A stretch of DNA of 64,000 bases from Planctomycetota bacterium (GTDB taxonomy: Bacteria > Planctomycetota > UBA1135 > GCA-002748355). The translations under genes were made by a program, and so were the position numbers. The stretch is from NCBI GenBank assembly GCA_011321845.1, contig DROQ01000211.1, positions 21,911-85,910 on the forward strand. Direction: 5' to 3'. This document shows positions 1,095-64,000 of the stretch, piece after piece (position 1 is the first letter of the stretch; the number at the start of each line of letters is the position of its first letter). The notes below the pieces were generated by a model that ran no database searches, was not told where the DNA came from, and was given only the letters and a program-made list of their open reading frames with translations.

Positions 1095-1128
1095 CTGCGA
1101 CCTCAACAGGTCCGTTTCCTGGGGCCGT

Positions 1129-2295
1129 TTACTGGATCTTGATGATCGGGGCCCTGCGGTAGAAGTACCGGGAGTAGACTTCCTTGTTGGGGTCCATTTT
1201 CTGGTTGCTGAGGACGTTGGCGGCTCCATAGCTGTAAACACCGCTGACCTTGACCAGCTTGGGGTCGTAGCCGGTCCCGATGGAGGTCTCGCGACCACGG
1301 GTGATCCCGATGCCCAGTGCGTTGGCGGTGGGGTCGATGATCAGGGCCTGATGGGCCAGCTTGACGCCGACCAGCTTGGGATCGTTGGGGATGTGGCCCC
1401 AGTCCAGATAGACTCCACCCTGACCGGGATTGGAAGTGTTGCTGGGTCCGTTGGAGGTCACGGTGATGGCGTAAAGAAGGGGATTGATGTGCCATTCGCA
1501 GTTCGCCGTGTTGGGAACCTTGACGCCGGCGGCCAGGCGGGTCCCGGCGATGCCGATGACGGGGAGCCCTGCCTTGCGACCGGTTCTCCAGACGTGCCCG
1601 AAGTTGCCATTCAGGTAGTTGGCCCTGGAGCTGTAGAAGGCCTTGGGATTGATGCAGTGGGTGGAGTAGAAGGTCGTGTTCGTTCCACCATTGTAATTGG
1701 TTCCCGCGTGGAGATCGCAATCCACATACCAAGTCCCAGCCTTGACGTCGGAGTCATAGCTGCGGATCTCGACCACCAGGGTCTTGCTGTTGGGGGGAAC
1801 GACAAAGTTGTTGATGTCGATGGTGACATCAAAAGGAGCCGCCTTGCCAGCTGCGGGTTTGGGCGTCGCCAAGAAGGTCACGGTCTTCGGAGCCGAGGGG
1901 CTGCCATAGACGACAGTCCTGTTGCTTCCATGGTTGTCGTCAAACTTGGTGTTGGGCTGGTGGGCCGGCTGGGTGCTCGTCGAAAGAATGACGACCCATT
2001 TGGCCTTGTGCGCTGTGGCGTTTCCGGAGGGCGAAGTGGCGCTCCTACGGAAGCTGATCTTGTCGATGACCTTGGGTTTGGTCGGGTCCCAGGGGAAGGT
2101 CGAGGCGTCATAGAGGAAGACCTCCCTGGCGACATAATATTTGTAGTTGGAAGTGGCGCTGAACGCGACGCTGAAACCACCCCAGAAGTAGCTGGTGCCA
2201 GGCTTGGTGTCGAAGCCCTTGGGTAGGGTGCTGCTCTGGGCGAAGCCGAGCGAGGACGTGGCCGCGATGGCGGCGAGGAGGGCGAATTTACGCAT
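1129..2295 (-). CDS. Secreted hypothetical protein (N/T/S-rich) with a conserved 'IPNDP..Q-ALIID' module
   Basis: ATG 2295, signal peptide MRKFALLAAIAATSSLGFAQS; no known catalytic motif; C-terminal segment IPNDPKLVGVKLAHQALIIDPTANALG shared with three other secreted proteins in the window. Confidence 0.7.
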   Translation of the reverse strand: MRKFALLAAIAATSSLGFAQSSTLPKGFDTKPGTSYFWGGFSVAFSATSNYKYYVAREVFLYDASTFPWDPTKPKVIDKISFRRSATSPSGNATAHKAKWVVILSTSTQPAHQPNTKFDDNHGSNRTVVYGSPSAPKTVTFLATPKPAAGKAAPFDVTIDINNFVVPPNSKTLVVEIRSYDSDVKAGTWYVDCDLHAGTNYNGGTNTTFYSTHCINPKAFYSSRANYLNGNFGHVWRTGRKAGLPVIGIAGTRLAAGVKVPNTANCEWHINPLLYAITVTSNGPSNTSNPGQGGVYLDWGHIPNDPKLVGVKLAHQALIIDPTANALGIGITRGRETSIGTGYDPKLVKVSGVYSYGAANVLSNQKMDPNKEVYSRYFYRRAPIIKIQ

Positions 2296-2501
2296 TGAAA
2301 AGACTCCAATGAAGAGAGGTTGGATTGAAACGATTGGAAAAATAAATCTGCAAAATGGGAACAGAATCTGCCGAAAAGCAAGGATGTTGCAAATGAAGCG
2401 GCAGACCGGATGAGTTTAGAGGGGTTCGGGAATAAGGCAAGGGGGGAAGGGGAGGGCTGGAACAGGACGGCGAGGCATTTTCTTTGAAAGTTTATGCAAC
2501 T

Positions 2502-2540
2502 CTGGCCAGCAACCCTGGCCAGCAACCCTGGCCAGCAACC
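2502..2540. repeat. Perfect 13-nt tandem repeat x3 (CTGGCCAGCAACC)
   Basis: Three identical contiguous copies 2502-2514, 2515-2527, 2528-2540, ending exactly at the stop codon (2541-2543) of the minus-strand channel gene; unit contains palindrome TGGCCA. Confidence 0.95.
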
Positions 2541-3548
2541 TCAACATTGCCCTGGGAGGGTCTCCCGCAACTCCTCGAGGTGGCTGGATTCGCCCAGGGC
2601 AACGAGGATGTCTCCGCTCTCGAGGGTGGTTTCACTGGAGGGGTTGAAGCGCATGACCCCATCGGGCTTGCGGATGGCGACAATGATCAGGCCGTAGCGG
2701 GAGCGGAGGTCGGTCTTGGAGAGGGGGACCCCGTCATAGCTGGAGCAGGGAGGGATCTTGATTTCGTCCAGGCGAAGGGCGTGGGCGCCTTTGCCCGTAG
2801 TGAGGTCGATGAAATCCATGACATTGGGGAGGAGGACGGCCTGGGCCATCCGGCGTCCGCCGATGAGGGTGGGCAGGATGACGACGTTCGCCCCGGCGCG
2901 GCGCAGCTTGCGCTCGGCTCCCTCGTCGGTTCCCCGGGCGACGATCTGGAGTTTACGGTTGAGGAAGCGGGCGGTCAGGGTGAGGAAGACGCTCTCCGCG
3001 TCGGTGGGCATGGCAGAAACGAGGACTTCGGCCCGTTCGATGCCCGCCTGGTTGAGGAGGGGCTCCTCGGTGGCATCTCCCTGGAGGGTGAGGTAGCCCT
3101 CGCGGCGCAGCTCGGCGAGGACTTCTTCGTCCCGGTCCAGGCAGACGACCTGCTTGCCGTGTTCGCGGAGTTCCTTGGCGATCATCTTGCCGATGCGCCC
3201 GATGCCGCAGACGATGATGTGACCCTTGAGGTTTTGGATTTGTTTTTGCATGCGCCGAAGCTCCAGGATGTTGGCGAGTTCTCCCTCGACGATGTGGGAG
3301 ACGGCCAGGCTGAAGGAATACGCGGCTGTGCCCACCCCGAGGCCGATGAGACCGATGAGGACGAGGCGGCCTTCGGAGCCCAGGTCGACGGGGGGGGCCT
3401 CGAAGCCTACGGTGGAGATGGTGATGATGACGTAGTAGAGGGCTTGGACGAAATCGAGGTGGTGGCGGAAGTGGAAGTAGGAGACTCCTGCGACCAGGAT
3501 GAGGAAGAGGAGGAGGAGAGCCCTGAGGAAGGTTCGATTCGACCGCAC
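2541..3548 (-). CDS. 2-TM cation channel with RCK/TrkA domains (MthK/Kch-like), non-canonical filter TVGFE
   Basis: GTG start 3548; two TM helices flanking pore sequence ITISTVGFEAPP; Rossmann motif IIVCGIGRIGKMIAKEL (TrkA-N) and a C-terminal TrkA-C-like region. Confidence 0.8.
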   Translation of the reverse strand: MRSNRTFLRALLLLFLILVAGVSYFHFRHHLDFVQALYYVIITISTVGFEAPPVDLGSEGRLVLIGLIGLGVGTAAYSFSLAVSHIVEGELANILELRRMQKQIQNLKGHIIVCGIGRIGKMIAKELREHGKQVVCLDRDEEVLAELRREGYLTLQGDATEEPLLNQAGIERAEVLVSAMPTDAESVFLTLTARFLNRKLQIVARGTDEGAERKLRRAGANVVILPTLIGGRRMAQAVLLPNVMDFIDLTTGKGAHALRLDEIKIPPCSSYDGVPLSKTDLRSRYGLIIVAIRKPDGVMRFNPSSETTLESGDILVALGESSHLEELRETLPGQC

Positions 3549-3597
3549 GGGGGGGATCTTAGCTTGGGGAGGGGGGGGACGCTTGGATGTTTTCTTG

Positions 3598-3863
3598 GGA
3601 AACGCCGGGAGGGGTTTTCTACCGGGGTTTTTTACGTGAAACGCCTGGAGGGGTTTTCTACCGGGGTTTTCTACGCAAAACGCCTGGAGGCGTTTCCTAC
3701 GTGAAACCCCTGGAGGGGTTTCCTACGCAAAACCCCTGGAGGGGTTTTCTACGTGAAACGCCTGGAGGCGTTCCCTACCGGCGTTCCCTACCGGCGTTCC
3801 CTACTGACGTTTCCTGCTGGCGTTCCCTACTGGGGTTCCTTATTGGGTTTTCTGGTGGGTTCC
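3598..3863. repeat. Tandem palindromic hairpin array, locus 1 (about 6 x 26-nt units plus about 7 x 13-nt half units)
   Basis: Units GAAAC[G/C]CC-TGGA-GG[C/G]GTTTC-CTACGY read directly; followed by tandem GGCGTTCCCTACC half units that decay into the 3' end of the 3827-5581 CDS. Confidence 0.95.
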
Positions 3864-5581
3864 ATTTTTCTTTTTTTGGGGGTGGGGGGTCTGCGGGTTC
3901 TTCTGCGGGGGAAGTTGAGGGAGAGCTTGAGCTGGGTTTCCTTGCCTTTGCGGCGGACGAAGAGGGAGACCTCCTTGGCGCCTTTTTGGAAGGCCCGGAA
4001 GATGCCCAGCATGATGTCGCGGGGCTCTTCGACCTTGTTCTTTCCGATGCGGAGGAAGAGGTCGCCCTTCTTGATCCCCGAGGCTTCGGCGGGGCTGCCC
4101 TTCTGGACACGGGAGACCAGCACTCCTTCGGCGAACTCGATGCCGAGCCGGAACCTGCGGCGCCGGTTTCCGCCCGTCAGCCTGGCGATCTCCGCGCGGC
4201 TGGTGCGGGGGAGGAGCTTGTCCAGGTTGGCGATGGCCAGGGCGCTCAGGGCGATCACCGTCGCGGACTGGCGCTGGTAGGGATCGATGGCCGCGTCGTA
4301 GGTGTCGTACTGGGTATGGTGGGTGTGGGTGTAGTTGGCCCTCCCCTTTTGCAGCCAGAAGAAGCCGGGGACCTTGGCCGAGACGAAGGAGGCGTGGTCG
4401 CTTCCGCCGACGAAGAACCTGAGGGGGCTGACTTCGAATTCGTACTGGGGATCCACCTTGTCGATTCCGGAAAGGGCTTTTCGCAGGATGGGGAGCTGGG
4501 AGGGGGTCGCCTGGAGGCCGGCGCAGTAGTTGGTGCCTCCGTCGTGGACCAGCACGGCCGAGACCCTATCGAGGAGGCCGTCGCTGCGGTGCTTTTTGAC
4601 GTAGGCCCGCGAGCCCATGAGTCCCTGCTCCTCCCCGGTCCAGAGCATGAAGCGGATGCTACGCTTGGGCCTGACCCCTGAGGCCATGAGGATGCGGGCC
4701 GCCTCCAGGGTCGTCGCCGTCCCCGTCCCGTTGTCTGTGGTTCCGGTGGCTCCGTCCCAGGAGTCGAGGTGTCCGCCTACGATGACGTATTCGTCGGGCT
4801 TCTCGGTCCCCACGATGTCGGCGACGACGTTGAAGTTGGGGATGGGGCCTTGGATGAAATGGTTTCGGATGTCGAAGAGGACGCGGGGCTTCTCACCCTT
4901 CTGGACGAGGTCTTTGAGTTTGTTGAACTCATCCACGCGCAGGGTGACCTCGGGGAGGGTGGGGCGCTTCTCCCAGCTGATGCGGAAGTTTCCGCTGGTG
5001 ATCAGGAGCTGGTTGCGGGAGGGAGCGATGAAGCCGAGGACGCCTTGGGTTTTGAGGAAGTCTTTGAGTTTGCGGGTCTTGGGGGAGAAGCGCCTTCGTC
5101 CCCCCAGCCTGCCGAGGATCCAGGCACCCTTGTAGAGATCGGGGCGGGCCTTGGCTTCTTCCAGGGTCTTGGGGAGGAGGAGGACCGGACCCTCCTGGCG
5201 CCCCTTGGTCCCAGCGCTCCAGGCGCGCGTCACAAAGTGGAGGTTCTGGGCAGCGCTTTTGGGAGAGGTGATCTCTCCGCTCCAGGGACCGCGCTCGAAC
5301 CCCACCTTCCAATCGCTCCACTTCTCCACGTGGGCGTTTTCGATCCCGAAGGACTGGAACTTGTCCTTGGCCCAATAGGCGGCGCGGATGGCCTGGGGGG
5401 AGCCGGTCAGCCGGGGGCCGATGCCGTTGGTCAGCTCGTCGAGGTGCTTGGCGACCTGGCTGTTCTGTTTGCCCTCTTGGATGATCCTGTCCCGGACGGC
5501 GCTCGGGACCAGGTTGGGGTCTTGGGCGGAGAGCAGGGTGGGCAGGAAGGCGAAGAGGAGAATCGAGGAGGGATGCTTCAT
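3827..5581 (-). CDS. Secreted M28-family aminopeptidase with C-terminal PDZ domain
   Basis: Internal ATG 5581 gives signal peptide MKHPSSILLFAFLPTLLSAQ; M28 motifs GGHLDSWDGATGTTDNGTG, WTGEEQGLMGS, GGSDHASF; PDZ GVLVSRVQKGSPAEASGIKKGDLFLRIG. The upstream 219 codons of the 803-aa ORF are judged to be shadow sequence. Confidence 0.85.
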   Translation of the reverse strand: MKHPSSILLFAFLPTLLSAQDPNLVPSAVRDRIIQEGKQNSQVAKHLDELTNGIGPRLTGSPQAIRAAYWAKDKFQSFGIENAHVEKWSDWKVGFERGPWSGEITSPKSAAQNLHFVTRAWSAGTKGRQEGPVLLLPKTLEEAKARPDLYKGAWILGRLGGRRRFSPKTRKLKDFLKTQGVLGFIAPSRNQLLITSGNFRISWEKRPTLPEVTLRVDEFNKLKDLVQKGEKPRVLFDIRNHFIQGPIPNFNVVADIVGTEKPDEYVIVGGHLDSWDGATGTTDNGTGTATTLEAARILMASGVRPKRSIRFMLWTGEEQGLMGSRAYVKKHRSDGLLDRVSAVLVHDGGTNYCAGLQATPSQLPILRKALSGIDKVDPQYEFEVSPLRFFVGGSDHASFVSAKVPGFFWLQKGRANYTHTHHTQYDTYDAAIDPYQRQSATVIALSALAIANLDKLLPRTSRAEIARLTGGNRRRRFRLGIEFAEGVLVSRVQKGSPAEASGIKKGDLFLRIGKNKVEEPRDIMLGIFRAFQKGAKEVSLFVRRKGKETQLKLSLNFPRRRTRRPPTPKKRKMEPTRKPNKEPQ

Positions 5582-25270: not shown

Positions 25271-25374
25271 GGAAACGCCTGGAGGCGTTTCCTGCCGGCG
25301 TTTTCTGCTTGAAACGCCTGGAGGCGTTTCCCACCGGCGTTTTCTACCGGCGTTCCCTGCCGGCGTTTTCTACG
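25271..25374. repeat. Tandem palindromic hairpin array, locus 2
   Basis: Two perfect GGAAACGCCTGGAGGCGTTTCC hairpins interleaved with 13-nt half units GGCGTTTTCTRCY; starts 9 nt after stop at 25262. Confidence 0.95.
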
Positions 25375-37410: not shown

Positions 37411-37554
37411 AAACCTGTCAAAACCTGTCAAAACCTGTCAAAACCTGAATGATTTCTGAACCTGAAAGACTTCCGAAACTGAAGGCTTTCCGAGACTGAA
37501 AGATTCCAAAACGGACTGAAAGATTCCAAGACGGACTGAAAGATTCCAAAACGG
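37411..37554. repeat. Two sets of short direct repeats in the actF-cox gap
   Basis: AAACCTGTCA x3 (37411-37440, 4th partial) then five units of ACTGAAAGATTCCAARACGG (last three 20-nt copies 37495-37554 nearly identical). Confidence 0.95.
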
Positions 37555-37570
37555 AAGGGGCCTAAAAGCC

Positions 37571-59424: not shown

Positions 59425-59843
59425 AGACCCAGGACAAAGGCCGCCGTTTGACGATCGGGCGCCTCGCCGAGGAGAGCGGGGTCCCGACCAAGACGATTCG
59501 TTATTACGAGGAAGTGGGGCTGCTTCCCCAGCCCGTCCGTGGAAGCAATGGCTACCGTCGCTACGAGGAGAGTGCCGTTCACATGCTGCGCTTCGTGAGC
59601 CGGGCGCGGGAGATGGGCTTTTCGATGGAGGAGACCCGGGAGCTGCTTGCCCTTTGGCTGGACAAGGGGCGTAAGAGCGCCGATGTGCGGGCGATCGCCT
59701 TGCGTCACCTTGCGACCATTACTCATAAGATTTCCAAGTTGCAGGGGCTTCAGGCCACTCTGCAGCACCTCGTGCGCTGCTGCCACGGGGACGACCGGCC
59801 TGATTGTCCGATTTTGGAGGCTCTAGCGGAGGAGGAGAGATGA
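59421..59843 (+). CDS. cueR: MerR-family Cu(I)-responsive regulator
   Basis: [27 protein letters not shown]; metal loop [14 protein letters not shown] matches E. coli CueR C..GDD..DCPI(I/L)E. Confidence 0.88.
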
Positions 59844-60097
59844 AGACTTATGGAATCAAGGGAATGACTTGTGAGGGTTGCGTTGGGGCGGTGACGAAGG
59901 CGCTTCAGGCGGTTTTGGGGGATGTGGAGTTTGAGGTTTCTTTGGCGGAGAACTGTGTGAAGGTGAAGGGGGAGCATGATCCGGAGAGGGTGAGGGAGGC
60001 GGTTGAGGGGGCGGGGTTTGAATTTGGGGGGGAGGGGGGGCTGGAAACACCTGGAGGTGTTTCCTACGGAAAACGCCTGGAGACGTTTTCTACTTAA
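59840..60097 (+). CDS. copZ: CopZ-like heavy-metal-associated chaperone with repeat-encoded C-terminal tail
   Basis: ATGA-coupled to cueR; [18 protein letters not shown]; last ~18 codons ([18 protein letters not shown]) lie inside hairpin array 3. Confidence 0.8.
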   Translation: MKTYGIKGMTCEGCVGAVTKALQAVLGDVEFEVSLAENCVKVKGEHDPERVREAVEGAGFEFGGEGGLETPGGVSYGKRLETFST

Positions 60098-60198
60098 AAC
60101 GTCTGGAGACGTTTTCTACATGAAACGTCTGGAGACGTTTCCTACTTGAAACGCCTGGAGGCGTTCCCTACCGGCGTTTCCTACCGGCGTTTCCTGCG
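60043..60198. repeat. Tandem palindromic hairpin array, locus 3 (5 full units plus 2 half units)
   Basis: GGAAACACCTGGAGGTGTTTCC, AAAACGTCTGGAGACGTTTT, GAAACGTCTGGAGACGTTTC, GAAACGCCTGGAGGCGTTCC etc.; between convergent copZ and 60206-62428. Confidence 0.95.
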
Positions 60199-60205
60199 GG
60201 GGGGG

Positions 60206-62428
60206 CTATTTGGGGGTGTGGGGGACGGTTTGGAAGAGGAGGACGAGGGCGCGTTGGAGGACGCGGCGGTCCTTGTCATCGATGCTGCCCTTTTGGACGA
60301 TCTTGTCGACTTGGGAGAGGAGGGCGGCGAAGGAGGGGTTGGCGCGGGCGAAGTTGGGGTATTCGCGGTGTTGGAGGCATTCCTTCAGGATCTTGCGCAT
60401 TTGGAGGGCGTCGCTGAGGCGGGCGCTGGGTTTGGCGAGGAAGGGGAGGGGGGCGCGGCGCTCGAGGAGGCCTTGGAGAAGGAGTCGGGAGAGGCGCAGG
60501 ACGCGGGCCATCTTGGCGTAATCGAGGTTGCGGGGCTGGTCGCTCGGGCGGTGGTAATACCAGGGGGTCGCTGAGCTGACGAAGAGGTAGGGGACCTTTT
60601 TGGCCCGAAAGGACATGTAGTCGCTGCGGGCGAGGGACGGGCCGAAGGGCTCCAGGATGTAGTTGCCGAGAGGAAGGATCTGGAAGGGTTCGCCCTTGAA
60701 CTTGGGTTGGATCTTTTGGATCAGGGTCTCCAGGGCGGGGCTGTGTTCACTGCCCATCAGGTAGATGTCGCCTTTGCGCCAGGGGAGGAAGTTTCCGCCG
60801 ACCAGGTCGTAGATCAGGGCGAAGCGGATGCGCGCGCAGGGGATCACCTCGTGGGAGACGAAGCGACGGGAGCCGACGAGTCCCTTTTCCTCTGCGTCGA
60901 AGAAGACGAAGGCGAGGTGGTAGGGGAGCTTGTGCTTTTGCGGGGCGAAGGCGGCGGCCAGGGCGAGGGTGACAGCGACTCCGGAGGCGTTGTCGTCCGC
61001 GCCGGGGTAGTAAGTCCTGGCGCGCTTGCCGAGGTGGTCGTAGTGGGCACCGATCAGGAGGTAGTCCTTGGCGTCTTTGTTCCCCGGGAGGATGCCCACG
61101 AGGTTGCGGCAGCGGGCGCGTCCATAGCGGAATTCATGGACATAGCCGGCTCCTTCCTTTCCGCGAACACCAGGTTCGAGGCCGAGGGCCTCGATGCGCT
61201 GGAGGAGCCAGTCGCCGGCCTTGCGCCCCCCGGGGGTGCCGGCGCCGCGGCCTTGGAATTCGGGAGAGGCCAGCTTGGAGACATCCGCTCGGAGCGCGGC
61301 CTCGAGTTTGGTGGGAGACTTCTGTTGAGGAGGGACGAGGAGGGCGAGCAGGCGGCGGCTCAGGGGTTTGAGCCTGGCGTACTCGCAATTGCTCATGAGG
61401 GCGACGCCGCTGTGGAGTTCGGGAAGGGCGAGAAGCCAGGTCCGGGTCTTTTCCTGAGCGCCTGCGTGCTCCACCAGCCGTTTGCCGGCGTAGCGACCGA
61501 GGGCGAAGCCCAACCCGTAACGCGTCCGCTTGCCATTCTTCAACGCGGGGCTGGTCCAGAGGGTCTCCCAACTCTTCTTTTTGAGCAAGGATGGGCTTCC
61601 CCAGGCTGCGCCGAAGCGCGCGAGGTCCACGACATGGGACAGGAACCCGCCCCCCGGCAGCTTCCAGCTCACGTCCGTGTTGCTGGAGGGGAAGGGCTCT
61701 CCCTTTTTTCCGAGCCGCTGGTAGCCGACCGCCCGCCCGGGGATGTCCTTCCACTGGTAATCGGGCTCCAGGCTGGAGAGGCCGAGGGGGAGCTTGATCC
61801 TCTTTCGCACCTGTTCCCAGTAGGGGACGCCTCCCGCCCGGCGGAGTACCGCGCCTGCCAGGATGAAGCCATGGGTGGAGTAGCTGTATTTGGTCCCGGG
61901 CTCGGCGATCAGCGGGGAGTCCTTGAAGGTGTCGAGGGCCAGGATGAGGTTGGCGAAGGGATGCTTCTCTTTGTAGCTGCGCTGGGTCCGGATGACCTTG
62001 CCGTTTCGGTAGTGCACGATCCCCGCCTGGTGGGCCAGGAGGCGCCGCATGGTGATGGGCCAAGGTTTCTTGGGAAACTCCGGGACATAGCTGCGGATGT
62101 CCTTGTCCAAATCCAGCTTGCCCTGCTCCACCAGCTGCATGGCAGCGATGGCGGTCAGAGGTTTTGAGATCGATGCCCAGCGATACTTGGTCTCCTTGCT
62201 GGCGGGGATCCTGGCCTCGCGGTCGGCGAAGCCATAGCCCTTGGCGTAAACGACCTTGCCTCCTCGAAACAAGGCGACCGAGAGTCCGACAAGGTTTTGC
62301 CGCCGCATACTCCGCTGCGCCAGCGCATCCACCTTTGCGGGGAGGGTTGGAGCTGCTTCTTGTGGAGGGGATCCCTGGGGAGCCAGGGCCATGAGAGGAA
62401 GGAGCGAGGAGAGGATGGTCGGCATCAT
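60206..62428 (-). CDS. Secreted fusion: serine hydrolase (class C beta-lactamase/PBP-like) plus M28 peptidase
   Basis: Internal ATG 62428 gives leader MMPTILSSLLPLMALAPQ; SxxK SISK in YRWASISKPLTA; C-terminal GAHYDHLG, GADDNASGVA, FFDAEEKGLVGS (M28). Confidence 0.8.
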   Translation of the reverse strand: MMPTILSSLLPLMALAPQGSPPQEAAPTLPAKVDALAQRSMRRQNLVGLSVALFRGGKVVYAKGYGFADREARIPASKETKYRWASISKPLTAIAAMQLVEQGKLDLDKDIRSYVPEFPKKPWPITMRRLLAHQAGIVHYRNGKVIRTQRSYKEKHPFANLILALDTFKDSPLIAEPGTKYSYSTHGFILAGAVLRRAGGVPYWEQVRKRIKLPLGLSSLEPDYQWKDIPGRAVGYQRLGKKGEPFPSSNTDVSWKLPGGGFLSHVVDLARFGAAWGSPSLLKKKSWETLWTSPALKNGKRTRYGLGFALGRYAGKRLVEHAGAQEKTRTWLLALPELHSGVALMSNCEYARLKPLSRRLLALLVPPQQKSPTKLEAALRADVSKLASPEFQGRGAGTPGGRKAGDWLLQRIEALGLEPGVRGKEGAGYVHEFRYGRARCRNLVGILPGNKDAKDYLLIGAHYDHLGKRARTYYPGADDNASGVAVTLALAAAFAPQKHKLPYHLAFVFFDAEEKGLVGSRRFVSHEVIPCARIRFALIYDLVGGNFLPWRKGDIYLMGSEHSPALETLIQKIQPKFKGEPFQILPLGNYILEPFGPSLARSDYMSFRAKKVPYLFVSSATPWYYHRPSDQPRNLDYAKMARVLRLSRLLLQGLLERRAPLPFLAKPSARLSDALQMRKILKECLQHREYPNFARANPSFAALLSQVDKIVQKGSIDDKDRRVLQRALVLLFQTVPHTPK

Positions 62429-62874: not shown

Positions 62875-62966
62875 GGTCCCTAGAATAGGTTCGTCCCCGG
62901 AGGAAAGGATCCCCTTTTGATCAGAATTCTTCCAACCCCCACCCTTCCTTGAAATGGAGCGCGGCG

Positions 62967-64000
62967 ATGACTTTGGTATCCTTCTTGCTTCCCCTCGTCT
63001 TCCTTGTCCAGCAGAACAAGGGTTACCCATTCGAGGAACCCATCCTCCTCCGAAGCGGGGGAGAGATCATCGACGTGGAGATGGGACATGCCGCTCCGCT
63101 GCTGGTGGACCTGGATGGGGATGGAAAACGAGAGCTTCTTGTCGGCCAGTTTGGTGAAGGCAGGCTGCGGATCTACGAGCGGACCCGGGAGGCAAAGGCT
63201 TATGATTTTGGCCCCGTCCGTTACTTCGAAGTGGGGAAACATCTGGGGCGTGTCCCAACGGGTTGATGCGTGGGTTTCGGTCCGCAGTTCGCGGACCTCG
63301 ACGGCGATGGCAAGAAGGACCTCGTCTCGGGTTCCTGGCCGGGGGAGGTTTATTGTTTCAAGGGCCAAGGCGGGGGGACCTTTGCGGCCCCGATCAAGCT
63401 GGGATTCGAGGATGGAACCGAGCTGAACGTGGGCAAGGCCGCCTCCGTGGCCGTGGGGGATTGGGACGGTGATGGGGATCTGGACCTCCTCATCGGGGTG
63501 ATCTCCGGAGAGGTCTGGTTCGTTCCCCGGGTGGCGAAGGAATGGAACAAGGGTTTCGGACCCGGCCAGAAGATCCAGGTCGGCTCGAAAGATCTGCGGG
63601 TGCCGGGGGGAGACGCGGGGCCCGCGCTGGCGGATTTCGACCGGGACGGAATCACGGACCTCCTGGTGGGTGCGGGAAACGGGAGCGTGCTCCTCTATCG
63701 CCGCGTCCGTAAGGGGGACGCGCTGCTGTTGCAACCTCCCCAGATCTTGCTTCCCCGTGGGGATTCCCAGCCCAAGGATCCCAAGCGTCATGGGCAGCGC
63801 TCCAAGCTCCAGGTCCTCGACTGGAACGGGGATGGACGCATGGACCTGTTGGTGGGCGACTTTTCTACAGAGCCGGGCGCTGCCCCCAAGTTGAGCCAGG
63901 CCCAGCAGGAAAAGAAAAAGAGCCTCCTCGCCCGGCGCAGCCGGATCTCCGCGGGTCTGGGGGAGAGGATCCGCGCCCTGTCCAGAAAGGTTCGCAAGGC
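62967..64000 (+). CDS. Secreted FG-GAP/VCBS-repeat protein, partial at window end, interrupted by one in-frame TGA (63264-63266)
   Basis: Signal MTLVSFLLPLVFLVQQ; repeats VDLDGDGKRELLVG, FADLDGDGKKDLVSG, GDWDGDGDLDLLIG, ADFDRDGITDLLVG, LDWNGDGRMDLLVG all in one frame on both sides of the TGA. Confidence 0.75.

What the first reader, a model, noticed from the sequence alone, without database searches (positions are those of the whole stretch)
3598..3863. Family of tandem palindromic hairpin arrays (26-nt units plus 13-nt half units), locus 1, running into a gene's 3' end
Six consecutive ~26-nt units, GAAAC[G/C]CC-TGGA-GG[C/G]GTTTC-CTACGY (8-9-bp stem, constant TGGA loop), are followed by about seven tandem 13-nt half units, GGCGTTCCCTACC. 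The same element, in the same orientation, recurs at 25271-25374 and 60043-60198. Stem variants are internally self-complementary: CGCC/GGCG and CCCC/GGGG here, CACC/GGTG and CGTC/GACG at locus 3. These are compensatory changes, implying the hairpin itself is maintained. All three loci abut a stop codon and are flanked by long G-runs (e.g. 3565-3581 and 3877-3895). Here the last 12 codons of the M28-PDZ peptidase (MEPTRKPNKEPQ*) are encoded by decayed half units. The element could be REP/BIME-like, a stacked terminator or mRNA 3' stabiliser, or a protein-binding array. I do not recognise it as a described family.
Basis: seen in the sequence. Interest (0 to 1): 0.7.

Follow-up and report, generated by a model that had tools for sequence, protein, structure and literature searches.

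The report
Tandem arrays of GTAG-tagged REP hairpins
The three repeat arrays are real and belong to a known class of bacterial non-coding repeats, the GTAG-tagged repetitive extragenic palindromes (REPs), here a previously unlisted family from an uncultured hydrothermal-vent planctomycete, arranged unusually as one-directional tandem arrays ending in a run of half units.

Summary
Three arrays in the same orientation (3599-3863, 25272-25373, 60044-60197) are built from a 20-nt hairpin, GAAACGCC-TGGA-GGCGTTTC, followed by CTAC. They also contain 13-nt half units made of the right arm plus CTAC. The motif gives 18 matches against 0.02 expected.

On the minus strand each unit reads GTAG plus hairpin. 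That is the defining layout of GTAG-tagged REPs (Di Nocera 2013), which are already reported in Planctomycetes.

The source is a Planctomycetota MAG from vent metagenomes. The arrays are identical in 4-5 independent assemblies. At least 12 more loci of the same organism carry them, and no other organism gave a true match. A related strain has an array-free allele at locus 1.

Across 58 units the loop and tag are nearly invariant (55/58 each). Four of the 8 stem pairs show compensatory double changes (0 of 500 shuffles reach the score). The TAG of the outermost GTAG often serves as the stop codon of the neighbouring gene.

Three features are unusual. The units stand only in head-to-tail arrays, a layout that is rare among REPs. 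The arrays end in polar half-unit tails. The base of the stem is A/T-rich.

No RAYT transposase was found in about 110 kb, and the whole genome could not be scanned. I file it as a new member of a known kind, of moderate interest.

The parts
3599..3778 (+). Array 1, hairpin section. Six hairpins (starts 3599, 3638, 3677, 3703, 3729, 3755), each an 8-bp stem, TGGA loop and CTAC tag. On the minus strand each reads GTAG-stem-TCCA-stem. The first two are each followed by one extra half unit, giving a 39-nt period.
3780..3863 (+). Array 1, half-unit tail. 13-nt units GGCGTTCCCTACn (minus strand: GTAG plus the 5' arm only). They are intact to about 3830 and decay outward to about 3863. They encode the last 12 codons of the peptidase on the minus strand.
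3827..3829 (-). TAG stop codon of the M28-PDZ peptidase gene. It is the TAG of the GTAG tag of half unit 3819-3830.
   Evidence: the array-free allele L126 ends KKRKM-TAG
3565..3581 (+). G-rich tract directly before the head of array 1. A similar tract precedes the head of every single-orientation array inspected.
3827..5581 (-). M28/PDZ peptidase gene that reads into the tail of array 1.
   Evidence: gene call of 584 aa with Pfam M28 and PDZ
2541..3548 (-). TrkA-type K+ channel gene. Its start lies about 50 nt beyond the head of array 1.
25272..25373 (+). Array 2: hairpin, half unit, hairpin, three half units (module order ABB ABBBB). It begins 9 nt after the stop of a plus-strand PDZ-protein gene (25262) and lies 86 nt upstream of a plus-strand sugar-phosphate isomerase gene (25460).
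60044..60197 (+). Array 3: five hairpins with different stems (CACC, CGCC/GACG, CGTC, CGTC, CGCC/GTTCC), then two half units. It lies between convergent genes.
60026..60040 (+). G-rich tract before the head of array 3. In sister strains a TAG stop of the CopZ-like gene lies inside it; in the window it reads GAG, so the ORF 59804-60097 runs into the array.
60206..62425 (-). Beta-lactamase/M28 gene whose 3' end faces the half-unit tail of array 3. An 8-nt G run (60198-60205) lies between them.

Best explanation
The arrays are a lineage-specific family of GTAG-tagged repetitive extragenic palindromes (REPs) in an uncultured hydrothermal-vent planctomycete.

The basic unit, read on the minus strand, is GTAG + GRAACNCC + TCCA + GGNGTTYC. 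It folds as a hairpin when the DNA is single-stranded or transcribed.

The pattern of conservation is an invariant unpaired tag and loop with a freely covarying stem. This points to recognition by a structure-specific protein. By analogy with all studied GTAG REPs, that protein would be a REP-associated HUH tyrosine transposase (RAYT/TnpA-REP), which would have seeded the copies at many intergenic sites (inferred, not shown).

Once at a site, the units multiply locally by 26-, 39- and 13-nt replication slippage. This would produce the head-to-tail arrays and the terminal runs of half units (inferred).

The arrays fill the space after genes. Because GTAG supplies a TAG in all three frames within 39 nt, any gene reading into the tail ends there (shown).

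When transcribed they would put stable hairpins into 3' untranslated or intercistronic RNA. Their most likely effect is the one shown for E. coli REPs: protection of upstream mRNA from 3' exonucleases and punctuation of operons. They may equally be near-neutral selfish DNA (inferred).
For: Anatomy: an 8-bp stem, a 4-nt loop and an unpaired tetranucleotide. CTAC is present in 55 of 58 units and TGGA in 55 of 58. On the minus strand the units read GTAG-hairpin.

Covariation: 4 of 8 pairs show double changes and 95.8% of cells are paired. None of 500 shuffles reach the score, and slid controls give about 0.

Dispersed and lineage-restricted: an exact scan of 241 million metagenome records hit 13 contigs. 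Twelve came from the one JGI metagenome that also holds this organism, and one was a chance hit. One more locus is on another contig of the source assembly. Viral contigs gave none. Short-read contigs often break inside arrays.

Gain and loss: a related strain (97.5% identical on one side) has an 81-nt spacer with no array at locus 1. A relative at about 75% identity has degenerate related hairpins 26 nt apart at the locus-2 site, and another relative has none.

Position: all arrays lie between genes, and most between co-directional or convergent genes (L110 is the one seen beside a gene start). The TAG of GTAG serves as the stop codon in window locus 1, L104, L105 (both sides), L106 (both sides) and L114.

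Head-to-head inverted arrays share a conserved, structured spacer in L105, L110 and L114.

All of these traits are listed for GTAG REPs in PMC3733652: sub-families with complementary stem changes, G-T pairs, HH dimers with conserved spacers, TAG used as a stop codon, location downstream of ORFs, and presence in Planctomycetes. GTAG plus hairpin is the substrate of TnpA-REP (PMC8266576).

Folding is far more stable than in shuffles: z = -5.2 as RNA and -7.3 as DNA.
Against: No RAYT gene was found in the roughly 82 kb contiguous region or the other contigs held, about 110 kb in total. This rests on phmmer with E. coli RayT and on the Pfam lists of called genes. The rest of the genome could not be searched.

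The organisation is atypical. No singletons occur in 64 kb. [quoted passage not shown]

Half units (tag plus one arm) cannot fold, and they are not described in the papers read.

The base of the stem is A/T-rich. The element therefore fails the rule of at least 3 G/C in the first 4 basal pairs, which is used to search for REPs in PMC6006769.

The GTAG strand lies on the presumed lagging strand in all informative single arrays. This is the opposite of what the IS608 lagging-template model would predict for active copies.

No transcript data are available, so every RNA-level role is inferred.
Confidence: 0.72

Rival explanations
1. Replication-linked single-strand hairpin arrays. The elements are oriented with respect to the replication fork, not to genes. 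They would then act, or be generated, on the lagging-strand template, for example as polar pause or priming signals, or as products of an ssDNA enzyme other than a classical RAYT.
For: All three window arrays share one orientation although their neighbouring genes differ: minus/minus, plus/plus and convergent. GC skew is positive over the entire window.

GC3 skew calibrated on window genes separates the two strands: plus-strand genes 0.00 +/- 0.09, minus-strand genes -0.29 +/- 0.10. By this measure the CTAC strand is the G-rich, presumed leading strand in 9 of 9 informative single arrays: the three window arrays, L103, L108, L109, L112, L115 and L132.

Window locus 2 and L132 break the alternative rule that the GTAG strand is the sense strand of the upstream gene.
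Against: Composite loci carry both orientations side by side (L105, L106, L107, L110, L114).

Strand calls on 1-5 kb contigs are noisy: L104 is ambiguous, and within L132 the genes disagree.

In 8 of 10 single arrays, orientation also fits the gene rule, so the two explanations are confounded. The sample is small.
Confidence: 0.12
2. An RNA decoy or regulator. Plus-strand transcripts would display UGGA loops (a GGA motif, or GGAGG together with the stem), like CsrB/RsmY-type sponges for CsrA. Minus-strand transcripts would display CCUCC anti-Shine-Dalgarno mimics.
For: The loop is invariant (55/58 TGGA). Locus 1 gives weak E-value hits to CsrC, RsmY and sX13.
Against: The scores are 13-18 bits against gathering thresholds of 50-61, and nothing in the window reaches a gathering score.

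The arrays are scattered after unrelated genes rather than forming one sRNA gene. In most loci the sense transcript carries UCCA, not UGGA.

No promoter-like site was found at locus 1. No CsrA ORF was found in the sequence held, which is uninformative for the whole genome.
Confidence: 0.04
3. A double-stranded DNA binding-site array. A protein would recognise the 12-bp GTAGGRAACGCC site repeated every 13 bp. In this reading the hairpins are only pairs of inverted sites.
For: The half units keep the tag and one arm at a strict 13-nt period, and they cannot fold on their own.
Against: The stems covary freely between units (CGCC, CCCC, CACC, CGTC, AGCC). No single 12-bp site is therefore conserved, whereas complementarity is. 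A sequence-specific dsDNA reader would not tolerate this, but a hairpin reader would.
Confidence: 0.06
4. Stacked intrinsic terminators.
For: The hairpins are stable and G+C-rich at the top, and they lie directly after stop codons.
Against: No T/U tract follows the hairpins on either strand. The scan found 1 terminator-like site against 2.3 expected. Orientation is not tied to the upstream gene.
Confidence: 0.04
5. An assembly or chimera artefact.
For: All the data come from short-read metagenome assemblies. Contigs frequently end inside arrays.
Against: The arrays at loci 1-3 are identical in independent assemblies from different samples and pipelines. Adjacent units differ in sequence, so they can be assembled. 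Only arrays with identical neighbouring units (L105, L108) may be collapsed.
Confidence: 0.02

Closest known systems
GTAG-tagged REP super-family (Di Nocera, De Gregorio & Rocco 2013, PMC3733652), including the SMAG repeats of Stenotrophomonas and families GTAG-20/21 of Rhodopirellula baltica
   Same: An unpaired GTAG directly 5' of a short perfect stem (6-9 bp is typical) with a 2-4 nt loop. Sub-families differ by complementary stem changes, with occasional G-T pairs. The elements are intergenic, lie mostly after ORFs, and the TAG of the tag serves as a stop codon. There are HH dimers with conserved, structured spacers, and clusters. The families are species-restricted, and the super-family is present in the PVC super-phylum.
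   Different: Here the units are almost exclusively head-to-tail with a fixed 2-nt spacer, whereas HT arrangement is rare in the published families. No singletons occur in 64 kb. There are polar tails of half units (tag plus 5' arm). The stem base is A/T-rich. The stem and loop sequence was not found in the paper's text or supplements; its Figure 1 could not be read.
E. coli REP/BIME with RayT (TnpA-REP; PDB 4ER8; PMC3479197, PMC8266576)
   Same: A GTAG guide tetranucleotide plus a hairpin, read as single-stranded DNA. The elements are extragenic and stand in tandem clusters.
   Different: BIMEs alternate REP and inverted REP, separated by linkers. E. coli REPs are longer and have a bulge that is required for activity. 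A cognate RAYT gene is known there and has not been found here.
REPINs of Pseudomonas fluorescens (Bertels & Rainey 2011; cited in PMC3733652)
   Same: The head-to-head inverted pairs (L105, L110, L114) with a conserved spacer resemble REP doublets. The family is within-genome and evolves quickly.
   Different: The replicating unit proposed for REPINs is the inverted doublet. Here most loci are one-directional arrays.
Thauera sp. MZ1T GTAG-1 and Thermomicrobium roseum GTAG-23 clustered REPs (PMC3733652)
   Same: GTAG REPs that occur mainly as tandem clusters detectable by tandem-repeat finders, and that can extend ORFs.
   Different: The stems and loops differ, and no half-unit tails are reported. 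I could not inspect those arrays directly.

Membership tests
GTAG REP super-family (Di Nocera 2013) | A short stem-loop: stem of 5-13 bp and a short loop | tested here: met
   8-bp stem and 4-nt loop in 58 of 58 units; 95.8% of stem cells are paired
GTAG REP super-family (Di Nocera 2013) | An unpaired GTAG (or close variant) at one end of the stem-loop, conserved in more than 90% of members | tested here: met
   CTAC lies immediately 3' of the hairpin on the plus strand, which is GTAG 5' on the minus strand, in 55 of 58 units. The variants are CTGC, CCAC and CTAT
GTAG REP super-family (Di Nocera 2013) | Repeated at many dispersed, mostly intergenic sites of one genome | tested here: inconclusive
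   15 distinct loci were seen: 3 in the window, 11 on JGI contigs and L132. All are intergenic, and there are 3 arrays in about 82 kb of contiguous sequence.
GTAG REP super-family (Di Nocera 2013) | Sub-families with alternative complementary stem residues | tested here: met
   Stem types CGCC/GGCG, CCCC/GGGG, CACC/GGTG, CGTC/GACG and AGCC/GGCT, and G/A paired with C/T at the base; 33 double-change cells
REPtron (REP + RAYT system; Nunvar 2010, Ton-Hoang 2012) | A RAYT/TnpA-REP (HUH-Y1) gene in the genome, flanked by the cognate REPs | not testable with these tools
   None was found in about 110 kb held, using phmmer with E. coli RayT and the Pfam lists of called genes. The rest of the genome is out of reach. 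Di Nocera et al. note that REPtrons can be missing from some REP-bearing species or strains
Canonical short-hairpin REP as operationally defined for searches (Quentin 2018, PMC6006769) | GTAG or GTGG 0-2 nt 5' of a fully paired basal stem of 7-20 nt with a loop of 2-5 nt | tested here: met
   Distance 0, stem 8, loop 4
Canonical short-hairpin REP as operationally defined for searches (Quentin 2018, PMC6006769) | [quoted passage not shown] | tested here: not met
   The basal four are GAAA, AAAA or GGAA, so 0-2 G/C. This is a search filter rather than a biological definition, but it means standard REP finders would miss this family
BIME (E. coli type) | Regularly alternating REP and inverted REP | tested here: not met
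   The window arrays are strictly one-directional. Only some other loci have two opposed arrays
CsrB/RsmY-type sRNA | A match to the Rfam model at gathering score | tested here: not met
   13-15 bits against 57-61
CRISPR | Repeats separated by unique spacers of similar length | tested here: not met
   The units abut with only 1-2 nt between them

The most novel reading that the evidence does not exclude
The arrays may not be ordinary RAYT-spread REPs. They could be a replication-oriented hairpin system. The CTAC strand lies on the presumed leading-strand sequence (the lagging-strand template) in every informative one-directional array. The units exist only as head-to-tail arrays with non-folding half-unit tails and G-run heads. 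These features could mark a distinct mechanism that makes or uses them at the fork. Candidates are a different single-strand DNA enzyme (Planctomycetes are the main home of the little-studied class 3 HUH-Y1 proteins) or a polar replication or segregation signal.
Probability: 0.1. Interest if true: 0.7.

Novelty: new member of a known kind. Interest (0 to 1): 0.35.

Why it matters
The finding extends GTAG REPs to an uncultured vent planctomycete. The family's A/T-rich stem base would escape the published REP search rule.

The array-only, polar architecture with half-unit tails is a natural case for studying how REP clusters grow, by slippage or by enzyme action. It also bears on whether REP orientation is set by replication or by transcription.

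Practically, these arrays break short-read assemblies of this lineage. They also supply stop codons and extend or truncate neighbouring ORFs, as in the peptidase tail and the CopZ read-through. Annotators should mask them.

Tried and rejected
1. The genome-collection scan used the 17-mer AAACSCCTGGAGGSGTT. The pattern was too short: it gave 98 single chance hits in unrelated taxa and no arrays.

2. L113, the one metagenome hit outside Ga0256832, sits in an A/T-rich context as a single unit. I rejected it as a chance hit.

3. Rfam at gathering score found nothing in the window. The E-value hits are far below threshold.

4. Viral contigs gave no match.

5. Paper searches for the sample and run accessions found nothing.

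6. A RAYT search by phmmer with E. coli RayT, and a CsrA search, against six-frame translations of everything held found nothing.

7. Searching the protein collection with array-encoded peptides, to enumerate further loci, gave only one hit (P0121, locus L132). Gene callers rarely call ORFs through arrays.

8. The central hairpins of the composite loci were searched in the window and are absent.

9. A look-up of window ORF 62880-63791 failed, probably because the start codon differs from the called gene.

10. Which strand folds was examined by comparing G-T with A-C mismatches. The minus strand has 9 wobble against 5 A-C. This is dominated by one repeated terminal-unit type and is not decisive.

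11. The general inverted-repeat scan of the window was uninformative.

Full report
WHAT IS THERE

In a 13-nt register the arrays are built from two modules. Module A is nGAAACGCCTGGA (left arm plus loop). Module B is GGCGTTTCCTACn (right arm plus CTAC). An A followed by a B makes a hairpin with an 8-bp stem and a TGGA loop, followed by an unpaired CTAC.
- Locus 1 reads ABB ABB AB AB AB AB, then about six more B units that decay outward.
- Locus 2 (25272-25373) reads ABB ABBBB.
- Locus 3 (60044-60197) reads AB AB AB AB AB BB.

Tandem Repeats Finder reports periods of 39, 26 and 13. The hairpin pattern has 18 matches against 0.02 expected. The half-unit pattern has 23 against 1.7. All three arrays have the same orientation on the plus strand.

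THE KEY RE-READING

On the minus strand every unit is GTAG-GRAACNCC-TCCA-GGNGTTYC. This is a conserved unpaired GTAG placed directly 5' of a short perfect hairpin. The half units are GTAG plus the 5' arm only.

SOURCE AND REALITY OF THE ARRAYS

Exact-protein look-ups place the window on a 99.7-kb contig of a hydrothermal-vent metagenome (ENA ERZ940665, run SRR4453772). Copies that are 99.96-100% identical occur in Logan, ENA and JGI assemblies of other runs. NCBI names the encoded protein as coming from a 'MAG TPA: Planctomycetes bacterium'.

All three arrays are base-for-base identical in these independent assemblies, although SNPs occur nearby. They are therefore not assembly artefacts. Short-read contigs do often end inside arrays.

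HOW WIDESPREAD THE ELEMENT IS

An exact scan of 241 million metagenome records with a 24-nt degenerate unit found 13 contigs. Twelve come from the one JGI metagenome (Ga0256832) that also contains this organism. The thirteenth is a single chance match. Viral contigs gave none.

A search of the protein collection with array-encoded peptides found one further locus on another contig of the source assembly (L132).

This makes 15 distinct loci, 58 aligned hairpin units (plus 7 in L132) and roughly as many half units. About 82 kb of contiguous sequence holds 3 arrays and no singletons.

My scan of the genome collection used too short a pattern and was wasted. The genome-wide number is therefore unknown.

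COMMON ARCHITECTURE

Everywhere, the arrays are runs of hairpins followed at one end only by a run of half units. The hairpin next to the half units is of one type, GAAACGCC/GGCGTTCC, in the 13 such units among the 58 aligned. L132 has the variant GAAACACC/GGTGTTCC. Both carry an A-C mismatch on the plus strand, which is a G-T wobble on the minus strand.

Adjacent hairpins usually have different stems, such as CGCC, CCCC, CACC, CGTC and AGCC.

Five contigs carry two arrays in opposite orientation, head to head with the GTAG tags outside. In three of them (L105, L110, L114) the arrays are joined by the same three-hairpin spacer.

A G-rich tract precedes the head of all six one-directional arrays inspected. 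G runs are, however, generally common on this strand: 57 runs of 6 or more in 64 kb.

HAIRPIN CONSTRAINT

In the 58 units the loop is TGGA in 55 and the tag is CTAC in 55, while the 2-nt spacer is free. Four of the eight stem pairs show changes on both sides, 33 cells in all, and 95.8% of cells are paired. None of 500 shuffles reach the covariation score. Sliding the partner by 1-3 columns abolishes the signal.

The arrays fold far better than shuffles: z = -5.2 as RNA and -7.3 as DNA.

Selection on a folded single strand would do this. So would hairpin-templated correction during replication, and I cannot separate the two. Both require that the hairpin forms in vivo.

Invariant unpaired bases with a covarying stem are what a structure-specific protein reader would produce.

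RELATION TO GENES

All arrays are intergenic.
- Locus 1 lies between two minus-strand genes.
- Locus 2 lies between two plus-strand genes.
- Locus 3 lies between convergent genes.

GTAG puts a TAG in all three frames within 39 nt. Any gene reading into the tail therefore stops there. The TAG of the outermost tag is the stop codon of the peptidase at locus 1 (3827-3829). The same holds for the flanking genes in L104, L105 (both sides), L106 (both sides) and L114. This explains why the loci abut stop codons.

In the window a TAG-to-GAG change, relative to sister strains, lets the CopZ-like ORF run into array 3.

No hairpin is followed by a T tract, and the terminator scan is below the shuffle expectation. 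These are not canonical intrinsic terminators.

GAIN AND LOSS

A related strain (L126) is 97.5% identical on the channel side of locus 1 but only 80% identical on the peptidase side. It has an 81-nt spacer with no array, and its peptidase ends ...KKRKM-TAG.

A relative at about 75% nucleotide identity (GCA_027024805.1) has three degenerate related hairpins at the locus-2 site, two of them 26 nt apart. Another relative has an unrelated hairpin there and no family member in 21 kb.

The family is therefore older than this species but turns over quickly.

COMPARISON WITH WHAT IS KNOWN

Di Nocera, De Gregorio and Rocco (2013, PMC3733652) define a super-family of REPs by an unpaired GTAG at one end of a short stem-loop. 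Their description includes the following traits:
- stems mostly 6-9 bp with short loops;
- sub-families with complementary stem changes, and frequent G-T pairs;
- location mainly after ORFs, between co-directional or convergent genes;
- predominant head-to-head dimers with conserved, sometimes structured spacers, and clusters;
- presence in Planctomycetes (R. baltica, Planctomyces spp.) and Verrucomicrobia.

Every one of these traits is seen here. TnpA-REP (RAYT) enzymes bind the folded single strand and use GTAG in recognition and cleavage-site choice. In group 3 systems particular loop bases are essential and the stems are perfect (PMC8266576). This matches the conservation pattern seen here.

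WHAT IS NOT TYPICAL

1. [quoted passage not shown] Here it is the rule, with a fixed 2-nt spacer, and there are no singletons in the window.

2. The polar tails of non-folding half units are not described in the papers I read. Modules A and B share CCT at the same place in the 13-nt register, and L104 contains a B/A chimera of the kind a 13-nt slip would make. I therefore think slippage at the array end is the likeliest origin, but this is inference only.

3. The base of the stem is A/T-rich. The element fails the rule of at least 3 G/C in the first 4 basal pairs used to search for REPs by Quentin et al. 2018.

4. No RAYT was found in about 110 kb (and the gene lists). The rest of the genome is out of reach with the tools left. 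Di Nocera et al. note that REPtrons can be missing from REP-bearing strains.

ORIENTATION

GC3 skew of window genes separates the two strands cleanly: plus-strand genes 0.00 +/- 0.09, minus-strand genes -0.29 +/- 0.10. By this measure the CTAC strand is the G-rich, presumed leading strand in 9 of 9 informative one-directional arrays: the three window arrays, L103, L108, L109, L112, L115 and L132. L104 is ambiguous.

In 8 of 10 arrays the GTAG strand is also the sense strand of a gene that reads into the tail. Window locus 2 and L132 break that rule.

The composite loci contain both orientations. The sample is small and the contigs are short. I report this as an open lead, not a result. If real, the orientation is opposite to the one expected for excision-competent IS608-type elements.

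OTHER RIVALS

The plus-strand loop UGGA (GGAGG together with the stem) gives weak E-value hits to CsrC, RsmY and sX13. These are four-fold below the gathering scores, and the arrays are not organised as an sRNA gene.

A duplex-DNA site array is unlikely. The 12-bp 'site' is not conserved, whereas complementarity is.

VERDICT

I classify it as a new member of the GTAG REP super-family with an unusual array-only, polar architecture.

Its spread by a RAYT and its effect on mRNA 3' ends are inferred by analogy and are untested.

Interest is moderate (0.35). The points worth following are the half-unit tails and the possible replication-linked orientation.

Noticed in passing
window 2496-2540: A 13-nt tandem repeat, CTGGCCAGCAACC x3.5 (96% identity), lies directly after the stop of the TrkA-type channel gene. 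It contains the palindrome CTGGCCAG. The period is the same 13 nt as the half units, but the sequence is unrelated.
   Followed up: no
window 37411-37555: An intergenic stack of direct repeats: AAACCTGTCA x4, then GACTGAAAGATTCCAAAACG x3 with 17-nt variants, upstream of a plus-strand gene. They look like operator or iteron-type binding sites.
   Followed up: no
window, whole: Homopolymer runs are strongly asymmetric between strands: 57 G runs of 6 or more against 19 C runs, and 23 against 4 for runs of 7 or more. This parallels a positive GC skew across all 64 kb regardless of gene orientation.
   Followed up: partly
window 60026-60034 and ORF 59804-60097: In sister assemblies the CopZ-like HMA gene ends at a TAG inside the G-rich tract before array 3. 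In the window that codon is GAG, and the ORF continues into the array, adding array-encoded residues.
   Followed up: yes
L126 versus window 1102-4636: Identity is mosaic: 97.5% on the channel side of locus 1 and 80% on the peptidase side. An apparent recombination breakpoint therefore coincides with the array site.
   Followed up: partly
L105 250-330, L110 2455-2535, L114 1055-1135: A conserved three-hairpin spacer joins opposed arrays at three different loci: GGAAAAGCC-TCCA-GGCTTTTCC (the innermost GTAG-tagged hairpin of one array), GGAAAACCC-GNA-GGGTTTTCC and GCATCAAAAGCC-RAA-GGCTTTTGATGC. It is absent from the window.
   Followed up: partly
L132 5005-5205 and 5254-5345: One array lies about 50 nt upstream of a tRNA-Ser(GCT) gene, and consists partly of 39-nt ABB units repeated three times.
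   Followed up: no
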